Origin: a virus
Taxonomy: Duplodnaviria > Heunggongvirae > Uroviricota > Caudoviricetes
IMG/VR virus record: IMGVR_UViG_2703718820_000012
Location: 1 to 10,489 of that record
Length of the DNA: 10,489 nt
Reading direction: 5' to 3' (one strand)
Shown: positions 1-10,489 of the stretch, piece by piece
Numbering within the stretch: position 1 is the stretch's first letter
How the letters are laid out: each line of letters starts with the position of its first letter
The notes under the pieces: generated by a model
The model's input: only the letters and a program-made list of their open reading frames with translations
What the model was told of the DNA's origin: nothing
The model's database searches: none
Program-made: the position numbers and the translations under genes

Positions 1-1
1 G

Positions 2-688
2 GACCAGGAAAAATGGAGCGGCGACGGTGCCGGACTCAAGGCCATCACCGGCGGCGATGCGGTGTCCGTGGACCCGAAATACCGGGATGCGTACTCCACG
101 CATATCCCGGCGGTAATTCTGGCCGTGAACAATAACCCGATGCGCTTCACCGACCGCAGCGGCGGCGTGTCACGCCGGCGGGTGATTATTCACTTCCCGG
201 AACAGATAGCCCCGCAGGAGCGCGACCCGCAGCTTAAGGACAAAATCACCCGCGAGCTGGCGGTCATCGTGCGTCACCTGATGCAGAAGTTCAGCGACCC
301 GATGCTCGCCCGGTCACTGCTTCAGTCCCAGCAGAACTCAGACGAGGCGCTGAACATCAAACGGGATGCCGACCCGACGTTTGATTTTATCGGCTATCTG
401 GAAACCCTGCCGCAGACCAGCGGCATGTATATGGGGAACGCCAGTATCATCCCGCGCAATTACCGTAAATACCTCTATCACGCCTATCTGGCCTACATGG
501 AGGCAAACGGCTACCGGAATGTACTCAGTCTGAAAATGTTCGGGCTGGGGCTGCCGGTGATGCTGAAGGAATACGGACTGAATTACGAGAAGCGCCATAC
601 CAAACAGGGGATACAGACCAACCTGACGCTGAAAGAGGAAAGCTACGGCGACTGGCTGCCAAAATGTGACGACCCTGCAACAGCCTGA
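2..688 (+). CDS. P4 alpha-like DNA primase/helicase, C-terminal portion (5' end lies upstream of the window)
   Basis: The listed ORF (62..688) starts at an internal GTG. The same frame is open from nt 2 with no stop in 2-61 (DQEKWSGDGAGLKAITGGDAVSVDPKYRD...). The sequence resembles the C-terminal region of phage/plasmid P4-family primases as I recall them. It is followed by an intrinsic terminator and by TGTTCACC iterons, the known binding motif of P4 alpha. Confidence 0.8.
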   Translation, partial: DQEKWSGDGAGLKAITGGDAVSVDPKYRDAYSTHIPAVILAVNNNPMRFTDRSGGVSRRRVIIHFPEQIAPQERDPQLKDKITRELAVIVRHLMQKFSDPMLARSLLQSQQNSDEALNIKRDADPTFDFIGYLETLPQTSGMYMGNASIIPRNYRKYLYHAYLAYMEANGYRNVLSLKMFGLGLPVMLKEYGLNYEKRHTKQGIQTNLTLKEESYGDWLPKCDDPATA

Positions 689-695
689 CCCACCT

Positions 696-720
696 GACCG
701 GCATCTGCCGGTCTTTTTTT
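696..720 (+). terminator. Rho-independent terminator of the primase gene
   Basis: Stem gaccggc (696-702) pairs with gccggtc (707-713), with loop atct, followed by a run of 7 T (714-720). It lies 8 nt after the TGA stop. Confidence 0.75.
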
Positions 721-738
721 ATCCCGACATCCCCCGAA

Positions 739-767
739 GGTGAACAATCCACTGTTCACTCTTCACT
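739..767. promoter_or_regulatory. Partial alpha-binding iteron cluster (TGTTCACC type)
   Basis: GGTGAACA at 739-746 is an exact reverse complement of TGTTCACC. TGTTCACT at 753-760 matches 7/8, and tcttcact at 760-767 matches 6/8. The arrangement is the same as at the start of each crr-like repeat further downstream. Confidence 0.55.
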
Positions 768-1149
768 GTATATCCCCCGTACCAATATGAATTTAGTGAC
801 AAGAAAACATAAGTTGAACAGGAAAACCCAAAGAACTTTTTATCCCCCTCCAGACATTACCTGTCGCATCCATATTGAGCAAAAAATCTCATAGATAGAG
901 TGGTATTATTAACGTTTATCGCTTATCTAAATAGTAAAAACAAAATGCGATTCTAATTTTATTCACAGGGTAAATAACTGAAATTATCTAAATAACTATA
1001 AACCCCTCATATATATAAATAAATTATACCACATAACCAAAATACGATATTCTGCTGAGATCATTAAATTTAAGCTTATTTCAATGGCTATTACTCTAAA
1101 GATTTGTTAATAACCAGTCGTCATGAAAATATACTTACAGTTATGTTTA

Positions 1150-1158
1150 TGCTATAAT
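1150..1158 (+). promoter_or_regulatory. Candidate extended -10 promoter element for the HAD gene
   Basis: tgcTATAAT has a TGn extension plus a perfect TATAAT at 1153-1158, 28 nt upstream of the ATG. No convincing -35 element is present. A strong Shine-Dalgarno GGGGAGG lies at 1175-1181. Confidence 0.35.
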
Positions 1159-1185
1159 CAGTGACAAATATTTTGGGGAGGAATT

Positions 1186-1872
1186 ATGAAAATTTGTTTT
1201 TTCGATATGGAGGGGACTTTACTTGAAAAGAACTCATATTTAGATAATGGAAAAGTTGCACCGAGCGCGTGGACAGTACTTGCCAAAGAAATCAGCGAAG
1301 CTTGTTTTATTGAAGAGGAAAAAACAAAAGATTTATGGCTAGCTAATAAATATATCAGCTATACACAATGGATGAAAGAAACTGTTGAAATACAAATCAA
1401 ACATGGAATGAACAAAAATCACCTACAAACGGTATTATCTCAAGCGAAGATACAAAAAGGTGCTGTGGAACTTATTCATTATTTGAAAAGTCAAGGATAC
1501 TTAACAGTATTGATATCTGGTGGGTTTAAAGAATTAGCAGACCTAACTCAAAAGAGCCTAAAAATAGATCATGCATATAGTGCTTGTGAATATTTTTTTA
1601 GGAAAGATGGTAGCATTGAGCACTTCAATCTATTACCAACAGATGAGGAAGGGAAACTGGTCTTCATGAAACACCTTGCCTCTGAATATAACGTAGAACT
1701 TGAAAATTGTATTTTTGTTGGCGATGGGAAGAATGATGTTTTTATCGCCAAAAATGTAGGTACTTCTATAGCCTTCAATGCTCAGAGAGAATTAAGAGAA
1801 GTATCTACATTTATTGTAGACCAAGAAACACCTGATTTATCAGCGATTATTGACCTTATTAGAACTATTTAA
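1186..1872 (+). CDS. HAD-superfamily hydrolase, subfamily IB (phosphoserine-phosphatase-like)
   Basis: A strong RBS (GGGGAGG) sits 4 nt upstream of the ATG. HAD motifs are visible: motif I FFDMEGTLL, motif II VLISGGF, and motif IV VGDGKNDVFIAKNVGTSIAFNA (GDGxND). The layout resembles SerB. The gene sits in AT-rich DNA. Confidence 0.8.
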   Translation: MKICFFDMEGTLLEKNSYLDNGKVAPSAWTVLAKEISEACFIEEEKTKDLWLANKYISYTQWMKETVEIQIKHGMNKNHLQTVLSQAKIQKGAVELIHYLKSQGYLTVLISGGFKELADLTQKSLKIDHAYSACEYFFRKDGSIEHFNLLPTDEEGKLVFMKHLASEYNVELENCIFVGDGKNDVFIAKNVGTSIAFNAQRELREVSTFIVDQETPDLSAIIDLIRTI

Positions 1873-2673
1873 TCGATTTTGGAAGTCAAGTTTATCTTTA
1901 ACTATTTCCAGTTGTTCCTCTAACTGTTTTATCTTTGATTCAGACTGTAATTTGTACTGATTAAATTCATTTAAGTCAAATTTCTCTGAGAAATAGTAAT
2001 CTCTCCCAAAAGAAATTAGCGAGAGGAATAACCCAACAACAGCGATCATCGTTCCTATTTTAGTTATCGATATAATTGATAATTTTTCAGTTAGCTCTTT
2101 GCTTATCTGCTCTTTTAGAACTACTGGTTCTAAAAAAGTTTTAGGAAAATTACTTATATCTGAAACACGGTAAGATCTATATTCATTATATTGTTCTATA
2201 ACATCATAAGAACTAGGCACAGCAGAAGCCGGTTGATAATTTGGATTTTTTTCTATTTCATGGAATACAACTCTAAAGAAAGATTTATCTTGCTCACTAT
2301 CAGTAACTGGAAGATATTCCTCTACAGCTGAGAAATTAATTAACAGTGTTGATATCGGACCGTTATATCCAGAATCGATAATACCAGTATTGAGTGCAAG
2401 AAACCCCTTTTGCGATAATCTATTTTTTAAAAATACATATGCAATAAAACCCTCTGGCACATGAAGTATTTCTTCTGATATTACAAAAGCCGAATCTTGC
2501 GGTTTAAGTAAAGTTCTTCCGAGAGATCTTACATGATTTTTTTCATCTTTAAAAAGAATTTCCCTAATAGAAAGATCCACACTTGATTTATTAGAATAAT
2601 CTTTTGTGATTTTTTTGTTATATCTATCACAAACAAACCCATATTCAATTGCTTTTTGAGCACTAATCTGCAT
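1840..2673 (-). CDS. dUTPase/dCTP-deaminase-fold protein with C-terminal transmembrane helix and coiled coil
   Basis: RBS aggtga lies upstream of the ATG at 2673. LKNRLSQKGFLALNTGIIDSGYNGPISTLLINFS aligns by eye with E. coli Dut ([35 protein letters not shown]) and Dcd ([33 protein letters not shown]). The hydrophobic stretch IGTMIAVVGLFLSLISFG spans aa 206-223 (nt 2005-2058). A heptad-like tail KLQSESKIKQLEEQLEIVKDKL follows. Confidence 0.75.
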   Translation of the reverse strand: MQISAQKAIEYGFVCDRYNKKITKDYSNKSSVDLSIREILFKDEKNHVRSLGRTLLKPQDSAFVISEEILHVPEGFIAYVFLKNRLSQKGFLALNTGIIDSGYNGPISTLLINFSAVEEYLPVTDSEQDKSFFRVVFHEIEKNPNYQPASAVPSSYDVIEQYNEYRSYRVSDISNFPKTFLEPVVLKEQISKELTEKLSIISITKIGTMIAVVGLFLSLISFGRDYYFSEKFDLNEFNQYKLQSESKIKQLEEQLEIVKDKLDFQNRLNSSNKVNNR

Positions 2674-2721
2674 ACTTCACCTAACTTAGCTTATTCTATC
2701 GAACAATAATTGAATCACATA

Positions 2722-2751
2722 GTTATAATGTAACTAGACGAATATATCCAA
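2722..2751 (-). promoter_or_regulatory. Candidate sigma70 promoter for the Dut/Dcd-like gene
   Basis: On the minus strand, TTGGAT (2746-2751) is followed by an 18-nt spacer and TATAAC (2722-2727), about 50 nt upstream of the ATG. This rests on a by-eye match to consensus only. Confidence 0.25.
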
Positions 2752-2892
2752 TGTTTTTGAATATATTATTGACGAAGCAAGTCAACTGATCAATACTGTG
2801 TATAAAAAAACAACATCTTCACCACATATAAAAAAAACATAAAATCATGGTACTACCTCAAAGTCCTGACTCCTGCTGAATTGCTTAATCAT

Positions 2893-2990
2893 AAGAAGCG
2901 CCATACAAAACAGGGAATAAAGAGCAACCTGACGCAAAAAGAGGAAAGCTACGGCCACTGGCTGCCAAAATGTTACGCTCCTGCAACAAC
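2893..2990 (+). pseudogene. Remnant of a second alpha-primase 3' end (copy B of the repeat)
   Basis: It encodes KKRHTKQGIKSNLTQKEESYGHWLPKCYAPATT, homologous to the last ~33 codons of the intact primase gene. There is no upstream coding body and the original stop is lost, so the frame reads on into the terminator and iterons. Confidence 0.75.
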
Positions 2991-2998
2991 CCTACCTA

Positions 2999-3022
2999 GA
3001 CCGTCCTCTGCCGGTCTTTTTT
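2999..3022 (+). terminator. Degenerate copy of the primase terminator
   Basis: gaccgtc (2999-3005) pairs with gccggtc (3010-3016) with one mismatch, followed by 6 T. It is homologous to the terminator at 696-720. Confidence 0.5.
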
Positions 3023-3039
3023 ATCCCGGCCCCCCAGAA

Positions 3040-3345
3040 GATGAACAATCCACTGTTCACCTTTCACCGTATATTCACCTGTTATCATACTGAAATTAAA
3101 AGAGAAAAATGAAAGGTGAACAGTGTGAACAATCAAATCAAAAAAACTCTTTTCTCCTTGTGTGATTTCAGTCCGGGGAATTAATCACCGGTATGAGTCA
3201 CACCGGCAGAATGCCGGAGGTGAAGAATCAAATGTTCACCCTTCACCCATTATTCACCACCTATCATACTGAAAGTAAAAGAGAAAACAGAAAGGTGAAC
3301 AGTGTGAACAGTTCTTTCGAAAAAAACTTTTTTCCTGTACGATAC
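3040..3345. promoter_or_regulatory. crr-like cis replication region: two ~125-bp direct repeats carrying TGTTCACC iterons
   Basis: Exact TGTTCACC occurs at 3054-3061 and 3233-3240. Exact GGTGAACA occurs at 3115-3122 and 3294-3301. 7/8 variants occur at 3040-3047, 3072-3079, 3124-3131, 3219-3226, 3251-3258 and 3303-3310. The units are about 3040-3165 and 3219-3345, with a 179-bp period. This matches the published description of P4 crr as two 120-bp repeats separated by 60 bp. Confidence 0.75.
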
Positions 3346-3618
3346 AGCATCAATCAAAGTAAAAATGAGCTTTCATTCCACATTAACTTACAGCCATTGG
3401 TATACAATTAGGTATACGCACAAAAGCTGAATTAAATAAAATAATTAAAAATCAAAGAAATAAAATACTTATTCAAACTCCGCCAGCCCAATCATGATTG
3501 GACGGTGTAAGGACAACACCAACAAAAACAGGAAGTTAGCAGTCTCAGCAGGACACCGACCAGACGGTGAGGAGACAAAAAAGGATACGCAAAGGAGCCG
3601 CGGCTCTCGAGTGACACA

Positions 3619-3649
3619 AAAGCCCGCTTATGCGGGCTTTTTGTTTTTC
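3619..3649 (+). terminator. Rho-independent terminator with no upstream protein-coding gene
   Basis: Stem aagcccgc (3620-3627) pairs with gcgggctt (3632-3639), with loop ttat, followed by tttgttttt. No ORF of 60 aa or more ends here. Confidence 0.65.
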
Positions 3650-3718
3650 CCTTAAGTTCCTAGCCGCTTATCTATAACTATGGAAAAATGTTAACCCTGA
3701 CTGTATGTTAACAAAGGG

Positions 3719-4933
3719 ATGTATATGTCGGTTTTTCATAACTGGCTGCTTGATATCGCAAGCGGGAATTACTTTATCTACATCAAACGCCTTTCTGCAA
3801 ACGACACAGGCGCAACAGGTGGCCATCAGGTCGGACTTTATATCCCCTCAAATATCGTTGAAAAGCTTTTTCCATCAATCAATCATACTCGCGAACTGAA
3901 CCCTTCAGTCTTCCTTACTGCGCATGTATCATCCCATGATTGCCCTGATACCCAAGCACGCGCAATTTATTACAACAACCGTTATTTTGGTAAGACCCGA
4001 AACGAAAAAAGAATTACGCGCTGGGGGAGAGGAAGTCCATTACAGAACCCTGAAAATACAGGAGCCCTCACAATTCTTGCTTTCAGGTTAAACGAACAGA
4101 ACACTGACTGTTCCGAGGTAGATATATGGGTCTGCGTCAATCCCGATGAAGAGGATATCATCGAGTCTGCTATTGGCGAAATCATACCTGGAACCCTAAT
4201 TTCCGGCCCTGCCGGACAAATTTTGGGCGGATTGTCTCTTCAGCAAACTCCAGTAAATCATAAATATGTTATTCCTGAAGACTGGAAGAAGCGTTTTCCT
4301 TCTGGAAACGAAATTATTCAATATGCTGCTGGCCATTATGCTAAAAACTCCAAGGATCCAGATGAGCAACTGATTGACCGTCGGCGTGTCGAGTATGATA
4401 TTTTTCTACTCGTCGAGGAATTACATGTTCTTGATATTATTAAGAAAGGATTCGATTCTGTAGATGAGTTTATTGCATTAGCCAACTCTGTCAGTAATCG
4501 ACGTAAATCAAGGGCAGGCAAATCACTTGAACTTCACCTAGAGAAGCTTTTTATCGAGCACGGACTACGGCATTTCTCCACTCAGGCAGTTACTGAAGGT
4601 AATAAAAAACCAGATTTCCTGTTTCCTTCAGCAGAGGCATATCATAACGTTGAATTTCCTGTAGAAAACTTACGTATGCTGGCAGTAAAGACCACCTGCA
4701 AAGATCGCTGGCGTCAGATACTGAATGAAGCAGATAAAATCCATCAGGTACATTTATTTACACTGCAAGAAGGTGTTTCTTCAGCACAATACCGAGAAAT
4801 GAAAGATGCGGGTGTCAGACTCGTTGTACCATCAACTTTACATAAAAAATACCCAGAAGCAGTTAGAGAAGAATTAATAACGCTCGGAGCATTCATTACT
4901 GAGCTGATAGAGCTTTACGCTGAACTATCATAG
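3719..4933 (+). CDS. ecoRIIR: Type IIE restriction endonuclease, EcoRII family (CCWGG)
   Basis: The 404-aa product is near-colinear with EcoRII as I recall it (SVFHNWLL...YIKRLSANDTGATGGHQVGLYIP...KKPDFLFPS...LAVKTTCKDRWRQILNEADK). Counting from the ATG at 3719, residues fall on the literature numbering: R88, E271, D299, Y308, K324, E337. An alternative ATG at 3725 has better SD spacing. Confidence 0.93.
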   Translation: MYMSVFHNWLLDIASGNYFIYIKRLSANDTGATGGHQVGLYIPSNIVEKLFPSINHTRELNPSVFLTAHVSSHDCPDTQARAIYYNNRYFGKTRNEKRITRWGRGSPLQNPENTGALTILAFRLNEQNTDCSEVDIWVCVNPDEEDIIESAIGEIIPGTLISGPAGQILGGLSLQQTPVNHKYVIPEDWKKRFPSGNEIIQYAAGHYAKNSKDPDEQLIDRRRVEYDIFLLVEELHVLDIIKKGFDSVDEFIALANSVSNRRKSRAGKSLELHLEKLFIEHGLRHFSTQAVTEGNKKPDFLFPSAEAYHNVEFPVENLRMLAVKTTCKDRWRQILNEADKIHQVHLFTLQEGVSSAQYREMKDAGVRLVVPSTLHKKYPEAVREELITLGAFITELIELYAELS

Positions 4934-4938
4934 GCTGA

Positions 4939-4961
4939 CTCCCGGCTTAAAAGGCCGGGAG
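4939..4961. terminator. Hairpin between the convergent R and M genes (possible bidirectional terminator)
   Basis: ctcccggc (4939-4946) pairs with gccgggag (4954-4961), with loop ttaaaag. It sits in the 34-nt gap between the two stop codons. Neither side has a clear T tract. Confidence 0.45.
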
Positions 4962-4967
4962 ATGTTC

Positions 4968-6401
4968 TCAAGGCTGCCCAGTCTTACCAGCATCAGCAGA
5001 AACAGCTTTGAGGATATAGGGTTCCAGAAGTCTGGCAACAGCTTCAAATACTGGCACCACAACTGAGTTACCGAACTGCCGATATGACTGAGTATCTGAA
5101 ACCGGAATACGGAATGGTTTCCCTCCAGGTTTTTCAAATCCCATAAGGCGTGCACACTCTCGGGGAGTCAGCCTGCGTGGTCGACGAGCCTGATTACTCT
5201 CATTCATAAAGTCAGCCTCTCCCGTTGCCATATCCCAACCACGATCAATAAGAATTTCTGATCCGTCTTTGTGATATCTGGCAGAAAGTGTGCGTGCAAT
5301 GCTTTCCTTATTCTCAGGATTGACCAACCCAAAGCCAAAACCATTCCCCTTGGCTGCATGCTTTTTGGCGTAGTTATAAAGGTACTCCCATAGTTTTGGC
5401 GTAAGTATATATTTACTGTCGACTACAGGCTCCAGCAATTCACCAAATGATGGGCGGTGTTCCGGATAAAAACGACTGATATCACGCAAGGTAAACCCCT
5501 TGTGAATATTCAGATCTCGTCTAAATCCGACCAGAACAATGCGTTCACGATGCTGAGGCAAAAAATGCTTCCCATCGATAATCTTTGGATCGTTTTTTCC
5601 CATTTCTGCAGCATCGGCAACTTCGTAGCCCAGCTCGTCAAGGGTCTCCATAATCACTTTGAAAGTTTTACCCTTATCATGGCTCTTCAGATTTTTGACA
5701 TTTTCCAGCACAAAAATTGCCGGTTTTTTTGCTCGTATAATACGTGCCACGTCAAAAAAAAGTGTTCCTTGTGCTTCACATTCAAAACCATGCGCACGAC
5801 CAAGTGAGTTTTTCTTACTAACACCAGCAAGGCTAAATGGCTGGCACGGGAACCCCGCAAGAAGCACATCATGATCCGGCACATGCTCATCAATATATGC
5901 ATAAGCATCCGTTTCCAATACATCGGTTTTATCACTCAGCGTGACTTCCCGAATATCGAGATTGAATTTATGCACCTGTTCATCGTTAAACCAGTTGGCT
6001 TTGTATGTACGCACAGCATCTTTATTCCATTCACTGGTAAAAACACACTGGCCTCCAATGGCCTCAAAACCTTTCCGTATCCCTCCAATTCCAGCAAATA
6101 AGTCAATGAAGCGGAAAGCATATTCCGGATGGTTTGCAGGTGGTTCTGGTAGCATCTTACGCAGAAGAGACTCTTCTACTGAAGTCAACGATTTTGGTAA
6201 ACACTTGCCATTAATCCAGCGGTTAATGGTTTCACGGCTCCACTCATTTTTTCCGACTTTTCTCAGTAATTCAGCCACATACTTCTGATCATAGATTTCC
6301 AGCACTTTCTCGATAAGCTTTTTATCATTTTCCTGTCGCAGCTTTTCTTCCGCCTCGGCTTCCTTCAGCAGATGCTGTGCCAACACTTCAAATTCAGACA
6401 T
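4968..6401 (-). CDS. ecoRIIM: DNA (cytosine-5) methyltransferase, M.EcoRII/Dcm family (CCWGG)
   Basis: The C5-MTase motifs are all present: [10 protein letters not shown] (I), GFPCQPFS (IV), FVLENVKNL (VI), QHRERIV (VIII), [11 protein letters not shown] (IX) and GNSVVVPV (X). The preferred start is the ATG at 6401 (MSEFEVLAQ...), preceded by GGAGG 5 nt upstream. This gives 477 aa and places the catalytic Cys at position 186, as in M.EcoRII. The ORF-track start at 6443 has no RBS. Confidence 0.93.
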
Positions 6402-6762
6402 AATTCCTCCAAGGGGTCTAATGGGTGAAACTTTATCACTCATTCAACCCAGAAGGAAATGTTTTATCTGGATATTTAAACAGTGACTACAACGTAATCT
6501 AGCACTGGTGATGCTTTGTTAGGCATAGAGAATCATTCTATATACGACTAATGACAGAAAAACAGCAGACAAGTAGTTTGTTCATAAATTAACGCATACT
6601 ATGTGTCTACGGTTTTCGAGACCGGTCCAATCATCAAACGAAACATAAAATTAGCTCACATTATGAGGAAAAGTATCTTTTTTGTACTATGTAAATTCAA
6701 AGGCTTAGCCTCATTTCTCCGATGGTTTTCTCAACACTACTGGTTGTGAGCCCTTGCAATGA

Positions 6763-7581
<819 letters not shown>

Positions 7582-7600
7582 GTCTTTAAGTGATAAGCAT

Positions 7601-7642
7601 AAACCGCAGCACGATCTTCTTCCATACGACGTGCTACGGTTT
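7601..7642. terminator. Long hairpin between the convergent GIY-YIG and invertase genes
   Basis: aaaccgcagcacg (7601-7613) pairs with cgtgctacggttt (7630-7642). The stem is 13 bp with one mismatch and the loop is 16 nt. It abuts the invertase stop codon. The T tracts are weak. Confidence 0.45.
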
Positions 7643-8196
7643 CATTTATCTCCGACCGGAAACTTCTTATACAGTGTCGATATACCAACATCATAGATGA
7701 TCGCCACCTTCTGGCGAGGAACGCCTGATGCAATTAATCGCCCGGCCTGCGCCCATTGTTCTGGTGTAAGTTTGGGACGACGTCCACCAATTCGTCCCTG
7801 TGCGCGAGCAGCTTCCAGTCCAGCTTTTGTTCGTTCAACAATCAGTTCTCGTTCCATTTCAGCCAGGGCACCCATCACATGAAAGAAAAAACGCCCCATC
7901 GGTGTGCTGGTATCAATAGCATCCGTCAGACTGCGAAAATTAACGCCACGTTCGCGCAACTCCTCAACCAGAATGACCAGATGCCGCATACTACGCCCCA
8001 GCCGATCCAGCTTCCAGACAACCAGAGTGTCACCTGCCGATAATGTCCTGAGCAGTTTTTTCAGTCCCGGCCTTTCGGACTTTGTACCGCTTATCTTGTC
8101 TTCAAAAATCAGCTCGCATCCTGCACAGTTCAGCGCATTACGTTGTAGATCTGTGTTCTGGTCATTTGTTGATACGCGTACATAGCCAATAAGCAT
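7642..8196 (-). CDS. pin: Serine-recombinase DNA invertase (Pin/Gin/Hin/Cin family)
   Basis: MLIGYVRVSTNDQNTDLQRNAL...VVWKLDRLGRS...MGRFFFHVMGALAEMERELIVERT...GRIGGRRPKL...IYDVGISTLYKK is the hallmark of this family. It includes the catalytic Ser in YVRVST and a C-terminal HTH. The true start is the ATG at 8196, giving 184 aa, the same length as e14 Pin. The ORF-track start at 8232 adds 12 unsupported residues. Confidence 0.93.
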   Translation of the reverse strand: MLIGYVRVSTNDQNTDLQRNALNCAGCELIFEDKISGTKSERPGLKKLLRTLSAGDTLVVWKLDRLGRSMRHLVILVEELRERGVNFRSLTDAIDTSTPMGRFFFHVMGALAEMERELIVERTKAGLEAARAQGRIGGRRPKLTPEQWAQAGRLIASGVPRQKVAIIYDVGISTLYKKFPVGDK

Positions 8197-8250
8197 GGTA
8201 GATCCCCCTGACAAAAGCAGGAATGATGCCATCTGCTCGTTATTTCTGCA

Positions 8251-8276
8251 TTTTCATAAACGTTGGTTTGGGAGAA
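8251..8276. promoter_or_regulatory. 26-bp invertase crossover site (pix/gix-like), invertase-proximal
   Basis: ttttcataaacg-tt-ggtttgggagaa is the reverse complement of TTCTCCCAAACC-AA-CGTTTATGAAAA. This matches the Din-family AAACC-NN-GGTTT core. It lies in inverted orientation to the site at 9782-9807 and shares its central AA/TT dinucleotide. Confidence 0.85.
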
Positions 8277-8630
8277 GCGGCAAAACGGAATGTAGGTAAC
8301 GGGCAAAACCAAATTCCGGATATGGCGGCGTTTGCCAGTTCACTTTCATCAACGGGTTTTCAAAAACTCCCTTCAGGTCTGATTATTCAGTGGGGTATTG
8401 TCAGTGGAGCATCAAACTATACGGTGACTTACCCGGTAACATTCCCAAATCGTTCACTTGCGCTGTTGGCTGTGCCACATACAACGTCGGTGGCTGGTAT
8501 ATCTGCAATGGGCATAGCGAACTGTTCTGATATCAGCAAATCACAGTTCTATATAATTGTTGGCGGTATATCTCAGGGAGAAATTGTCAAATATGAAAGG
8601 TCCTGTTTTTGGGTAGCAATCGGTGTATAG
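8265..8630 (+). CDS. Alternative tail-fibre C-terminal cassette (silent orientation, no start of its own)
   Basis: [23 protein letters not shown]... parallels [23 protein letters not shown]... of the expressed fibre, then diverges. After inversion it would be in frame with the constant part (9796-10489). The ORF-track portion 8223-8264 lies outside the segment and is spurious. Confidence 0.75.
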   Translation, partial: GLGEAAKRNVGNGQNQIPDMAAFASSLSSTGFQKLPSGLIIQWGIVSGASNYTVTYPVTFPNRSLALLAVPHTTSVAGISAMGIANCSDISKSQFYIIVGGISQGEIVKYERSCFWVAIGV

Positions 8631-8638
8631 GTATATCT

Positions 8639-9034
8639 ATGATTTATTTCTCAAAATCGACTAATGGTTTTTTCTTTGATGGTATAAACAGCGACATGCC
8701 TGCTGACATTGTTGAGATAAGTACAGACTTATACAATGAATTAATTGCCGGACAGCAGGAAGGGGGGAAATTAATCACGTCAGATGAAAATGGTTTACCG
8801 GTACTGAAATCTCCGGCGATTGATTATGTCGCACGTGCTGAAAATCAGCGAATGCAGTTACTTGCTCATGCCGATAATGTCACAGCTGACTGGCGGGTGG
8901 AATTAATGCTTGGTGATATCAGCAGTACAGATAAAGAAAAACTATCTGCCTGGATGGACTACAAAAAAGAAGTAAAAGCCGTCGACACTTCGACGGCTCC
9001 TGAGATTAGCTGGCCTGAGTTACCGGAGGTGTAG
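8639..9034 (+). CDS. tfa: Tail-fibre assembly protein (partner of the silent cassette)
   Basis: MIYFSKSTNGFFFDG...LYNELIAGQ...[30 protein letters not shown] follows the typical Tfa/U-family layout. It lies directly downstream of the fibre cassette. The start is placed at the ATG at 8639 rather than the ORF-track start at 8609. Confidence 0.8.
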   Translation: MIYFSKSTNGFFFDGINSDMPADIVEISTDLYNELIAGQQEGGKLITSDENGLPVLKSPAIDYVARAENQRMQLLAHADNVTADWRVELMLGDISSTDKEKLSAWMDYKKEVKAVDTSTAPEISWPELPEV

Positions 9035-9425
9035 GCCATTCAATATCTGGCGCACCGGAAGTATCGACCAGTTCCAGTGCGTCCAGGTAATCCAGCCACA
9101 AATTATATTGTGCCAGTTCCTCACCTTTCAGCCGGCCAATAGCCGCTTTACCAGGCCATTGTTTACTGTTCATATAATCGTTGGCCTGTTCAATAAGTAT
9201 ATTTTTCATTCCCTCCGCTTCAGCTATTTCCTGTTCATGTGTCTTCGCTGGATATTCAGTAAGTACAGGGTAGTTATCCGGGCTATTGATAATAATTTTC
9301 CCCGTACTCTGACCATTCATAAGTTCATAATAAAGAGCATCTTCAATATCGAAAGCATCATCGGGAATATCGCTGTTGTTTTCAGAGAAAAATCCCTGAA
9401 CAGATGGGGACCATTTCATTTTCAT
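9006..9425 (-). CDS. tfa: Tail-fibre assembly protein (partner of the expressed fibre)
   Basis: [15 protein letters not shown]...LYYELMNGQ...[28 protein letters not shown] is a paralogue of the 8639-9034 product. Its start overlaps the fibre stop (ATGA overlap at 9422-9425). Confidence 0.8.
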
Positions 9426-10489
9426 AATTTCCCAATTCCTAAAATATGGACATCATCAGCCTTACGGGCATTCCAGGTGACAATTACATCGGTAGAGTGA
9501 CGATTAACTGAGATTGCGTATGCTTCGTTAGTCGAGCCAGAAACTTTTGTGGCAAACACAGCAAACAGGACACCAAATGACTGGGGCCATTTATAGCCTG
9601 ACAGCTGATAATTACCATTATCCAGTGTTACAGCTTTGACTGCTGCACTTGATGGAATCGTCAGCCACTGGAGTATCAACCCTCCTGGCAAAAGTTGTTT
9701 TCCATAAAAATCCCTCACACCACTAAATGAAACCATATCCGGTATCTGATTTTCCCCTGTTCCCACGTCCCGTTTTGCCGCTTCTCCCAAACCAAGGTTT
9801 TCGAGAGCCGTTTGCACAGTGCCATCCGATTTGATATCGCCAAACGGATTCTTGCGGCTTAACAGCAGCGCACGAAGTGCGGTAAGCATCTGGTCATGCC
9901 GCCCTTTCTCCAGGCTGGCACCGGAGGCCTCCACCACGCTACAAAGTTCTTCCTGCAACATGTCAAAGTAGTCATCATCCAGATCGGTGGCAGGTGTGCC
10001 GGTCTGGGGGTTACCACGGGTATCCGGTTTGTCGGTGTTACTGCCCTGACCGTTCTCTCTGTGACGATGCCCGTTATAGGCAAGCCGCATCGCTGACATG
10101 GTGGTGCCGCCGGAGTCGCACAGGTCTTTCACCTGTCCGGTCACTTCCAGGTCCATTTCAAAACGTGCTTCAGGTGCATTGCGAAACGTGATCGTTTTAC
10201 CTGCACCGTCCACCACGATCCCCTCCCGGGTCAGCGTCACGGACTGCCCCTGATCGTCATAGACAGCCACCTCGCCCGTCTGCAGCCCTTTCAGGCGGTA
10301 GCGACGGTCCGACACCGTAACAACCACCGCATGAGAACGGTCGCCATCCGGAAACAACACCACCGCTTCCGCACCGCTGTTTGCCCTTGCGGTAAAACCG
10401 TAGGGTTCAAGATGTTCAACCCCGGCTTTGGGTTCACCGGCAATCAGGGACACATCCACGGTCTGTAGTGGCACACTAAATTTGGCCAC
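9422..10489 (-). CDS. Tail protein: Mu Gp45-like baseplate domain fused to an invertible tail-fibre C-terminus (5' end probably beyond the window)
   Basis: The N-terminal part [55 protein letters not shown]...YNGHRHRE resembles the Mu Gp45 / baseplate assembly V family. The C-terminal part [37 protein letters not shown]...[13 protein letters not shown] is tail-fibre-like and crosses the inversion site at 9794/9795. The frame is open to the window edge. Confidence 0.75.
9782..9807. promoter_or_regulatory. 26-bp invertase crossover site (pix/gix-like), within the fibre gene
   Basis: TTCTCCCAAACC-AA-GGTTTTCGAGAG is a near-palindromic Din-family site. It is inverted relative to 8251-8276 and sits at the constant/variable junction of the fibre ORF (codons LENLGLGE). 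Confidence 0.85.

What the first reader, a model, noticed from the sequence alone, without database searches (positions are those of the whole stretch)
3040..3345. crr-like replication enhancer with five exact TGTTCACC octamers and a 179-bp period
Exact TGTTCACC or its complement occurs five times in the window (739, 3054, 3115, 3233, 3294), all clustered downstream of primase-gene ends. A given 8-mer is expected well under once in ~10.5 kb on both strands. The two units (about 3040-3165 and 3219-3345) each begin next to a GC hairpin and end in an A-run/T-run. This reproduces the published architecture of P4 crr, the site bound by the alpha C-terminal domain. It implies the satellite replication module is probably still functional, and that the cassette in 776-2892 now separates alpha from its crr.
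Basis: partly seen in the sequence, partly recalled or inferred. Interest (0 to 1): 0.5.

Follow-up and report, generated by a model that had tools for sequence, protein, structure and literature searches.

The report
P4-type crr replication site, displaced by cargo

Summary
TGTTCACC occurs five times, against 0.29 expected; none of 200 shuffles reached five. Segments 3039-3153 and 3218-3332 are direct repeats with a 179-bp period.

Window 2894-3333 aligns to phage P4 at E=5e-160, covering the alpha 3' end, the t_alpha terminator and crr. Inside the annotated crr, 278 of 300 bases are identical. All ten annotated P4 "type 1" iteron positions are kept, nine with P4's exact sequence. The alpha C-terminus in the window is 100% identical over 100 residues to the solved P4 origin-binding domain (1KA8).

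Three refinements:
- The octamer at 739 belongs to a separate, decayed single crr unit (734-~845).
- The intact crr is preceded by a primase pseudogene fragment (2884-2994) and a weakened second terminator. This segment is only 85% identical to its counterpart at 588-773. The intact crr therefore derives from another satellite lineage, not from a simple insertion.
- Cargo between alpha and crr recurs in other Enterobacterales satellites. A minor hotspot between the primase and att was reported in 2026.

The element is known biology and of low interest. Whether it still functions is inferred, not shown.

The parts
1..688 (+). 3' part of the alpha primase-helicase gene (last 228 codons). It includes the C-terminal winged-helix origin-binding domain (codons at 365-664).
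   Evidence: 96.7% nucleotide identity to P4 alpha over window 1-821. 100% identity over 100 aa to PDB 1KA8. The stop codon maps to the P4 alpha stop.
696..720 (+). t_alpha, the rho-independent terminator of alpha (stem 696-713 plus T-run).
   Evidence: Terminator scan. Fold of -14.1 kcal/mol, z = -5.6. Aligns to the annotated P4 t_alpha.
734..845 (.). crr copy A: a single, decayed crr unit of the 'E1 type'. Iterons: 739-746(-) exact; 753-760(+) TGTTCACT; the third destroyed (771-777); 813-820(-) TGTTCAAC; the fifth deleted.
   Evidence: Alignments to P4 crr unit 1 and to the single crr unit of the E. coli E1 satellite. Window 2-957 is 79% identical to L004 7807-8772.
1186..1872 (+). Cargo gene 1: HAD-IB family phosphatase-like hydrolase (228 aa).
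   Evidence: Pfam PF00702 at 3.9e-15 and NCBIfam TIGR01488 above its cutoff. Annotated as 'HAD family hydrolase' in BEN2908 and E1.
1840..2673 (-). Cargo gene 2: a 277-aa protein with a weak dCTP-deaminase/dUTPase-fold N-terminal region and a hydrophobic C-terminal segment.
   Evidence: Pfam DCD at 2.2e-05 and dUTPase at 2.1e-04, both just below their gathering scores. NCBIfam dCTP_deam at 6.8e-07, below its cutoff. No PADLOC or PHROGs hit.
2884..2994 (+). Remnant of a second alpha gene (last ~36 codons plus stop); a pseudogene fragment.
   Evidence: Window 2894-3074 is 85% identical to 588-773. RefSeq annotates the same bases in BEN2908 as an incomplete 'poxvirus D5-like family protein'. The stop maps to 2992-2994.
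2998..3023 (+). Second copy of t_alpha, with a weakened stem.
   Evidence: Terminator scan. Fold of -7.9 kcal/mol against -14.1 for the copy at 696. Maps to P4 t_alpha.
3035..3153 (.). crr unit 1 (copy B). Iterons: 3040-3047(-) TGTTCATC; 3054-3061(+) TGTTCACC; 3072-3079(+) TATTCACC; 3115-3122(-) TGTTCACC; 3124-3131(-) TGTTCACA. There is an extra conserved TTCACC half-site at 3064-3069. The unit ends in an A-run/T-run at 3138-3152.
   Evidence: Maps to the P4 'crr 120bp direct repeat' at L001 4641-4760. Iteron columns are 91-98% conserved across 52 units, against 70% for spacer columns.
3154..3213 (.). 60-bp spacer between the two crr units. It holds most of the hairpin CCGGCA-GAA-TGCCGG (3203-3217), which is related to the t_alpha stem and runs 4 bp into unit 2.
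   Evidence: The 29-nt segment 3196-3224 folds at -14.5 kcal/mol, z = -4.6. The sequence is conserved in P4 and ETEC1717.
3214..3333 (.). crr unit 2 (copy B). Iterons: 3219-3226(-) TCTTCACC; 3233-3240(+) TGTTCACC; 3251-3258(+) TATTCACC; 3294-3301(-) TGTTCACC; 3303-3310(-) TGTTCACA. All five are identical to P4's.
   Evidence: Maps to P4 L001 4821-4940. It is a direct repeat of unit 1 with a 179-bp period.
3396..3420 (.). Probable integrase arm-type repeat ATTGGTATACnnTTAGGTATACG.
   Evidence: The same 23-mer (91% identical) lies between ssrA and the satellite integrase in BEN2908, L003 4723-4745. Its function is inferred.
3473..3488 (.). Right end of the satellite (attR core): TTCAAACTCCGCCAGC, a copy of the ssrA 3' end.
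   Evidence: It resembles the ssrA 3' end TTCAACTCCCGCCAGC. Many E. coli genomes that lack the satellite segment match the window only from 3472 or 3488 onwards.

Best explanation
Window 3035-3333 is the crr (cis replication region) of a P4-like satellite prophage integrated at ssrA. It consists of two ~120-bp direct repeats separated by a 60-bp spacer.

Each repeat carries five 'type 1' iterons (TGTTCACC and one-mismatch variants, in both orientations), a conserved TTCACC half-site, and a terminal A-run/T-run.

Proposed mechanism, carried over from phage P4 and inferred here. The C-terminal winged-helix domain of the satellite's alpha primase-helicase binds these iterons and the same iterons in ori, several kb away. 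Bridging of the two iteron clusters enables alpha to open ori and start theta replication of the excised element. crr is needed in cis.

In this element alpha is followed first by a decayed single crr unit (734-~845), then by a 2-kb two-gene cargo cassette. After that comes a fragment of a second alpha gene with its terminator, and then the intact crr and attR. The working crr is therefore most likely this downstream copy. It was inherited from a resident ETEC1717-type satellite. The alpha gene, the decayed unit and the cargo come from an E1-type lineage.
For: What the sequence and tools show:
- Octamer enrichment and a 179-bp direct repeat.
- 89% identity, E=5e-160, to P4 over the features annotated as crr, 120-bp repeats and type 1 repeats. 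278 of 300 bases are identical inside crr, and 9 of 10 iterons are identical to P4's.
- P4's ori carries six annotated type 1 repeats. The near-identical BEN2908 satellite has six exact TGTTCACC at the equivalent place, between the sid-position gene (annotated only as 'hypothetical protein') and the HTH gene. Its alpha CDS is an intact 2334 bp.
- The alpha DNA-binding domain in the window is identical to PDB 1KA8. Literature held here states that alpha binds the origin repeats through this winged helix (PMC4234260; PMC2777425).
- Purifying selection is visible. In 52 distinct crr units from Enterobacterales satellites, the columns of iterons 1-3 are 91% conserved. Spacer columns are 70% conserved (Mann-Whitney p=3e-5).

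Evidence for mosaic origin:
- 588-773 versus 2894-3074 is only 85% identical.
- Window 2894-8277 is 97.8% identical to ETEC1717, which has a plain alpha-crr-att arrangement.
- Window 2-957 and 1127-2771 match the E1 satellite, which has one crr unit followed by the same cargo inside its att sites.
Against: - No binding or replication experiment exists for this sequence.
- The first iteron of unit 1 (3040-3047) carries a substitution (GGTGAACA to GATGAACA) at a column that is more than 90% conserved.
- The intact crr lies about 7.1 kb from ori in the integrated map of BEN2908, against about 4.8 kb in P4 and ETEC1717. Tolerance of that distance is assumed, not shown.
- The alpha-fragment context would also fit a dead relic.
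- The primary crr papers could not be read here. The looping and cis-requirement statements therefore rest on GenBank annotation and on my recollection of Flensburg & Calendar 1987 and Ziegelin et al. 1993/1995.
Confidence: 0.88

Rival explanations
1. The crr at 3035-3333 is an inert relic of a second, mostly deleted P4-like satellite. The resident element replicates using only the unit next to alpha (734-~845), or no longer replicates at all.
For: - It is preceded by an alpha pseudogene fragment and a weakened terminator, -7.9 against -14.1 kcal/mol.
- Natural satellites with only one crr unit exist: E1, L024, L028 and L110. One unit may therefore be enough.
- The 2026 survey notes that the primase is pseudogenised more often than the other core genes in defective P4 and P2 elements (PMC13586616).
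Against: - Copy A has lost two of its five iterons and carries mismatches in two more. The equivalent columns are more than 90% conserved across the family.
- Copy B keeps all ten iteron positions.
- All core genes of the BEN2908 satellite are annotated as intact.
- Decay of A with preservation of B is the pattern expected if B is the copy under selection.
Confidence: 0.15
2. The repeats are protein-coding. An ORF starting in the spacer (3193-3411, 72 aa) corresponds to the GeneMark-predicted P4p05 that overlaps crr unit 2 in NC_001609.
For: The ORF exists. RefSeq P4 lists a 'hypothetical protein, Predicted by GeneMark' over the same bases.
Against: - Homology to P4 stops at 3333, so the C-terminal part of the ORF is unrelated to P4p05.
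- The ORF lengths differ.
- Unit 2 sequences of other satellites carry 1-nt indels.
- Conservation is concentrated in octamers on both strands, not in a codon-like pattern.
Confidence: 0.03
3. The octamer cluster is a chance or low-complexity repeat with no specific role.
For: None beyond the AT-rich context.
Against: No shuffle out of 200 reached 5 copies. The match to an annotated functional element has E=5e-160. The octamers are conserved across genera.
Confidence: 0.01

Closest known systems
crr (cis replication region) of satellite phage P4 (X51522 / NC_001609, bases 4291-4590)
   Same: - Two ~120-bp direct repeats with a ~60-bp spacer; the period is 179 bp here and 180 bp in P4.
- Ten type 1 iterons at the same positions and in the same orientations.
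- Both lie between the alpha terminator and the att site.
- 278 of 300 bases are identical.
- The cognate alpha DNA-binding domain is identical.

   Different: - It is not contiguous with the intact alpha gene. A decayed extra crr unit, a 2-kb cargo cassette and an alpha pseudogene fragment lie between them.
- One iteron carries a substitution (3040-3047).
- The element integrates at ssrA with a different integrase and att. Homology to P4 ends at 3333.
P4 ori (X51522 9086-9809), the origin proper
   Same: It uses the same TGTTCACC type 1 iterons bound by alpha; six are annotated in P4 ori.
   Different: - ori also has three tandem 10-bp type 2 repeats, and its iterons are packed at 10-11 bp spacing.
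- The window region has the crr layout: iterons spaced at 14, 18, 43 and 9 bp, in two long direct repeats.
- It aligns to crr, not to ori.
[quoted passage not shown]
   Same: The HAD / DCD-like cassette at 1186-2673 lies in exactly this interval. The comparable cargo in L056, L069, L095, L040, L039 and L077 does too.
   Different: That paper does not mention crr (0 occurrences). In these cases, here, the cargo sits upstream of the full crr or between crr units. The cassette proteins match no PADLOC model convincingly.
Iteron clusters of theta-replicating plasmids that pair with the origin (e.g. R6K gamma-ori enhancer, P1 incA / F incC 'handcuffing' sites)
   Same: In both, a distant cluster of initiator-binding repeats acts in cis on the origin through initiator-mediated pairing. 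This is recalled from general knowledge and was not tested.
   Different: - The initiator protein family differs: a Rep winged-helix dimer, not a DnaG-type primase / SF3 helicase fusion.
- incA and incC are inhibitory, whereas crr is required for initiation.
- No sequence similarity was sought or found.

Membership tests
P4-type crr | Significant sequence homology to the annotated crr of phage P4 | tested here: met
   blastn 89% identity over 434 nt, E=5e-160, onto the features labelled crr. 278 of 300 bases are identical within crr.
P4-type crr | Two ~120-bp direct repeats separated by ~60 bp | tested here: met
   Units 3035-3153 and 3214-3333, spacing 179 bp, 80-85% identical.
P4-type crr | Type 1 iterons (TGTTCACC and close variants) in both orientations, five per repeat | tested here: met
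   All ten annotated P4 positions are retained, and nine are identical to P4's own sequence. The octamer is enriched over shuffles.
P4-type crr | Position downstream of the alpha gene and its terminator, next to the att site | tested here: met
   It follows an alpha 3' end and t_alpha (2884-3023) and lies about 140 bp before attR at 3473-3488. Caveat: the adjacent alpha is only a fragment. The intact alpha ends at 688, 2.3 kb upstream.
P4-type crr | A cognate alpha protein with the C-terminal origin-binding winged-helix domain is encoded by the same element | tested here: met
   The window alpha C-terminus is 100% identical over 100 residues to PDB 1KA8.
P4-type crr | A partner ori with the same iterons elsewhere in the element | tested here: inconclusive
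   The ori lies outside the window. The BEN2908 locus is 99.7% identical over window 1-3642. It has six exact TGTTCACC at L003 9312-9415, between the sid-position gene ('hypothetical protein') and the HTH gene, mirroring P4's six annotated ori repeats.
P4-type crr | Bound by alpha and required in cis for replication | not testable with these tools
   This needs EMSA or footprinting and a replication assay. Only conservation of the iteron columns across genera supports function.
P4 ori (origin proper) | Tandem 10-bp type 2 repeats plus six closely packed type 1 repeats, located between sid and the early regulatory genes | tested here: not met
   The region aligns to crr, not to ori. Its layout is two long direct repeats downstream of alpha.

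The most novel reading that the evidence does not exclude
The alpha-crr junction of P4-like satellites may be a recombination-prone cargo slot in which crr units themselves are split, lost and replaced. In this element alpha, with its own crr unit now decayed, would depend on a crr 'borrowed' from another satellite lineage and displaced 2.3 kb further from alpha, about 7 kb from ori. That would make it a natural experiment on the position-independence and unit-number requirement of crr. The pattern of one unit, then cargo, then two units recurs independently with different cargo in Raoultella (L056). Cargo between alpha and crr is also seen in Cedecea and Citrobacter satellites and in two loci whose organism was not recorded (L095, L039).
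Probability: 0.4. Interest if true: 0.3.

Novelty: already known. Interest (0 to 1): 0.15.

Why it matters
It confirms that the window begins with the right end of a P4-like satellite at ssrA, and that the satellite probably retains a complete replication module: alpha, an iteron cluster, and an ori in the near-identical genome. That helps delimit the element. Its right end is near 3488, not at the alpha stop codon that satellite-finding pipelines usually use.

It also shows that two cargo genes (1186-2673) travel inside the satellite.

For P4 biology, natural variants with one, two or three crr units, and with crr displaced by 0.7-2.2 kb, offer ready-made material for asking how many units crr function needs and how far it tolerates being moved. 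None of this changes current understanding.

Tried and rejected
- Primary literature on crr could not be read. Look-ups for Ziegelin 1993/1995, Tocchetti 1999 and the Lindqvist 1993 review failed. Full-text searches for crr phrases returned nothing relevant. Mechanistic statements therefore rest on GenBank feature annotation, two secondary citations and memory.
- An Rfam scan of the whole window found no family at gathering score. ARAGORN found no tRNA or tmRNA, so the att site is only a 16-bp ssrA-like fragment.
- I looked for an att or integrase remnant in the junction 2674-2893, which would prove a history of tandem integration followed by deletion. Nothing was found beyond 51 bp shared with the E1 satellite. 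The exact recombination route stays open.
- PADLOC and PHROGs gave no convincing match for the two cargo proteins, so I do not call them a defence system.
- The 17-mer scan of genome contigs returned 110 stretches. By my arithmetic about 70 are expected by chance (596 Gb x 2 strands / 4^17). Only loci with an adjacent alpha homologue (35 by tblastn) were used. Iterons 4-5 were excluded from the conservation test because the search pattern forces their conservation.
- The reading of the ORF across unit 2 as a gene was considered and rejected (see rival explanations).

Full report
**1. The observation**

The octamer TGTTCACC or its complement occurs exactly five times in the 10,489-base window: 739(-), 3054(+), 3115(-), 3233(+) and 3294(-). 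In 200 dinucleotide-preserving shuffles the mean was 0.29 and the maximum 3, so none reached five.

Segments 3039-3153 and 3218-3332 are direct repeats with a start-to-start spacing of 179 bp. Identity is 80% without gaps and 85% mean column identity when aligned.

A G+C hairpin precedes each unit:
- 2998-3017, followed by a T-run: -7.9 kcal/mol.
- 3203-3217 (within the folded segment 3196-3224): -14.5 kcal/mol.

No shuffle folded as well as either. Each unit ends in an A-run/T-run.

**2. What it is**

A distant blastn search of 2900-3500 against the phage collection hit only phage P4 (X51522, NC_001609, X05623). Identity was 89% over 434 nt, E=5e-160. The match lies on the features the depositors annotated as 'crr (cis required region for replication)', 'crr 120bp direct repeat (x2)', 'ori type 1 repeat (x10)' and the alpha terminator.

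Reading P4's annotated type 1 repeats gives TGTTCACC five times, plus the variants TATTCACC, TGTTCACA and TCTTCACC.

A global alignment maps P4's features onto the window:

| P4 feature | Window coordinates |
|---|---|
| alpha stop codon | 2992-2994 |
| t_alpha terminator | 2999-3022 |
| crr | 3035-3333 |
| crr unit 1 | 3035-3153 |
| crr unit 2 | 3214-3333 |

Inside crr, 278 of 300 bases are identical. All ten iteron positions are retained, and nine are identical to P4's own sequence. The exception is 3040-3047, TGTTCATC instead of TGTTCACC.

**3. The binding protein**

Window 1-688 is the 3' end of an alpha primase-helicase gene, 96.7% identical to P4 over window 1-821. Its translation is 100% identical over 100 residues to PDB 1KA8, the P4 alpha origin-binding domain.

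Papers held in the library state that alpha binds the repeats of the P4 origin through this winged-helix domain (PMC4234260; PMC2777425). An identical DNA-binding domain next to iterons identical to P4's makes binding of alpha to 3035-3333 a strong inference.

**4. The partner origin**

The ori is outside the window. The E. coli BEN2908 locus is 99.7% identical to window 1-3642. In that locus:
- The satellite sits at ssrA. Its core genes carry no pseudogene flags; the sid-position gene is annotated only as 'hypothetical protein'. The alpha CDS is an intact 2334 bp.
- Six exact TGTTCACC lie between the sid-position gene and the HTH gene at L003 9312-9415. This mirrors the six type 1 repeats annotated in P4's ori.

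**5. Evidence of selection**

An exact scan of one genome per species for GGTGAACAGTGTGAACA returned 110 stretches. By my arithmetic about 70 of these are chance. Thirty-five have an alpha homologue alongside. The recorded organisms include Enterobacter, Citrobacter, Raoultella, Klebsiella, Atlantibacter, Cedecea, Leclercia, Serratia, Pectobacterium and Pantoea. The set also includes Oceanisphaera, which is outside Enterobacterales, and a few MAG contigs labelled as unrelated taxa.

I aligned 52 distinct crr units from these loci:

| Columns | Mean conservation |
|---|---|
| Iterons 1-3 | 91% |
| TTCACC half-site (3064-3069) | 92% |
| A-run/T-run (3138-3152) | 87% |
| Remaining spacer | 70% |

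The difference between iterons 1-3 and spacer columns gives Mann-Whitney p=3e-5. Iterons 4-5 were left out of the test because the search pattern forces their conservation.

**6. The surroundings change part of the interpretation**

The octamer at 739 is not an outlier of the same array. Directly after the intact alpha stop (688) and its strong terminator (696-713, -14.1 kcal/mol) lies a separate crr unit, 734 to about 845. This unit has decayed:
- iteron 1 is exact;
- iteron 2 reads TGTTCACT;
- iteron 3 is destroyed;
- iteron 4 reads TGTTCAAC;
- iteron 5 is removed by a deletion.

This unit and its downstream flank are homologous to a P4-like satellite at tRNA-Sec in E. coli E1 (window 2-957, 79% identity). 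That satellite has a single, intact crr unit followed by the same two cargo genes (window 1127-2771, 86% identity). All of this lies inside its 23-bp att repeats.

The intact crr at 3035-3333 is preceded by the last ~36 codons of a second alpha gene (2884-2994), which RefSeq marks as an incomplete pseudogene in BEN2908. A weakened copy of t_alpha follows the fragment. The duplicated stretch 588-773 versus 2894-3074 is only 85% identical.

Window 2894-8277 is 97.8% identical to E. coli ETEC1717. There a P4-like satellite at ssrA has the plain order alpha, crr, att, neighbouring prophage.

The arrangement is therefore a mosaic. An E1-type alpha, crr unit and cargo segment is joined to the residual right end of an ETEC1717-type satellite: alpha fragment, t_alpha, crr and attR. 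It is not a cassette dropped into one element.

I looked for an att or integrase remnant at the junction and found none. Whether the route was tandem integration followed by deletion, or illegitimate recombination, stays open. Three complete E. coli genomes carry the same mosaic at 99.6-99.9% identity.

**7. How it most likely works**

The sequence shows two iteron-bearing repeats homologous to P4 crr, the cognate binding domain, and conservation of the iterons across genera.

The rest is inferred from P4, partly from memory of Flensburg & Calendar 1987 and Ziegelin et al. 1993/1995, which I could not read here. In that model alpha bound to crr pairs with alpha bound to ori. This pairing is needed in cis for alpha to initiate theta replication at ori after excision.

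The copy next to alpha has lost or damaged four of five iterons, while the distal copy keeps all ten positions. The distal copy is therefore most likely the one under selection. It lies about 7.1 kb from ori in the integrated map, against about 4.8 kb in ETEC1717 and P4. On the excised circle of about 12.3 kb, the other arc is about 5 kb.

The main rival is that the distal crr is a dead relic. It is not excluded, and I give it about 0.15.

**8. Comparison with what is known**

This is P4's crr in a P4-like prophage. About a fifth of complete E. coli genomes (1082 of 5426) match the 600-3500 segment, mostly through the alpha 3' end and crr.

Displacement of crr by cargo is not unique to this window. 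In a survey of 34 satellites:
- Most have two units starting 54-65 bp after the alpha stop.
- Three have one unit only (L024, L028, L110).
- Three have a ~680-bp cargo, a 185-aa protein with a hydrophobic N-terminus, between alpha and crr (L069, L095, L040).
- One has a 1.3-kb cargo (L039).
- L077 and L108, with more distant alphas, have about 2.2 kb of cargo before iteron-like sites. In L077 this cargo looks like GNAT and Fic toxin-antitoxin genes, judged by eye from the translations.
- Raoultella L056 shows the same pattern as the window (one unit, 1.9-kb cargo, two units) but with different cargo.

[quoted passage not shown] An earlier paper delimited satellites at alpha and found no prevalent genes beyond it (PMC8628076). 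Neither discusses crr. The cargo slot is thus known at gene level. Only its relation to the crr units is a small addition.

**9. Verdict**

The element is already known. Interest is low (0.15).

The most novel reading still open is that crr units are split, decayed and replaced at a cargo slot, with an alpha working on a borrowed, displaced crr. It would be of modest interest (0.3) at a probability of about 0.4.

Noticed in passing
window 1186-2673: A two-gene cargo cassette sits inside the satellite. It encodes a HAD-IB phosphatase-like protein (228 aa, +) and a convergent, overlapping 277-aa protein (-). The second protein has a weak dCTP-deaminase/dUTPase-fold region and a hydrophobic C-terminal segment. 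The same pair (86% nt identity) lies inside the att sites of a different P4-like satellite at tRNA-Sec in E. coli E1. No PADLOC model matches convincingly. A nucleotide-pool-based anti-phage role is only a guess.
   Followed up: partly
loci L069 3216-3950, L095 3013-3750, L040 4913-5650, L056 5477-7548, L039 5093-6461, L077 4895-7119, L108 2392-4576: Other Enterobacterales P4-like satellites also carry low-GC cargo between the alpha stop and crr. Examples are a 185-aa protein with a hydrophobic N-terminus, a 495-aa protein, a 626-aa protein, and what look by eye like GNAT/RHH and Fic toxin-antitoxin pairs. L056 repeats the window's layout of one crr unit, cargo, then two units. None of these proteins was scanned against a family library.
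   Followed up: partly
window 3064-3069 and 3243-3248: A TTCACC half-site directly follows the second iteron of each unit (TGTTCACCyTTCACC). It is 92% conserved across 52 units but is not annotated as a type 1 repeat in P4. It may be a sixth alpha contact per unit.
   Followed up: partly
window 3138-3152 and 3317-3331: The A-run/T-run that ends each crr unit (AAAAAAACTyTTTT) is 87% conserved across genera. That is much higher than the neighbouring spacer. It could be an intrinsic bend or an easily melted element, but no function is known to me.
   Followed up: partly
window 3396-3420, 3473-3488 and 3618-3641: The right end of the satellite holds three features. The first is a 23-bp arm-type repeat also found next to the integrase in BEN2908. 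The second is a 16-bp ssrA 3'-end fragment, where homology to satellite-free genomes begins. The third is a copy of an ssrA-terminator-like hairpin. The satellite and the next prophage sit in tandem at ssrA.
   Followed up: partly
window 3719-7581: The neighbouring prophage starts with defence genes. These are an EcoRII-type restriction endonuclease (3719-4933), a C5 cytosine methyltransferase (4968-6443, minus strand), and a GIY-YIG protein (6808-7581) that matches PADLOC PD-T4-3 at 1e-139.
   Followed up: partly
window 7642-9800: A Pin/Hin-type DNA invertase gene (7642-8232, -) lies next to tail-fibre and tail-fibre-assembly genes. These are bracketed by 68-bp inverted repeats (8258-8325 and 9733-9800, 84% identical), which looks like an invertible host-range segment.
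   Followed up: no
loci L044 (Oceanisphaera) and L102, about 45-255 bp after the alpha stop: Two satellites with distant alpha proteins (54-57% identical in the C-terminus) carry about 12 TGTTCACC-like sites packed into ~210 bp downstream of alpha. This is a different crr architecture built from the same octamer.
   Followed up: no
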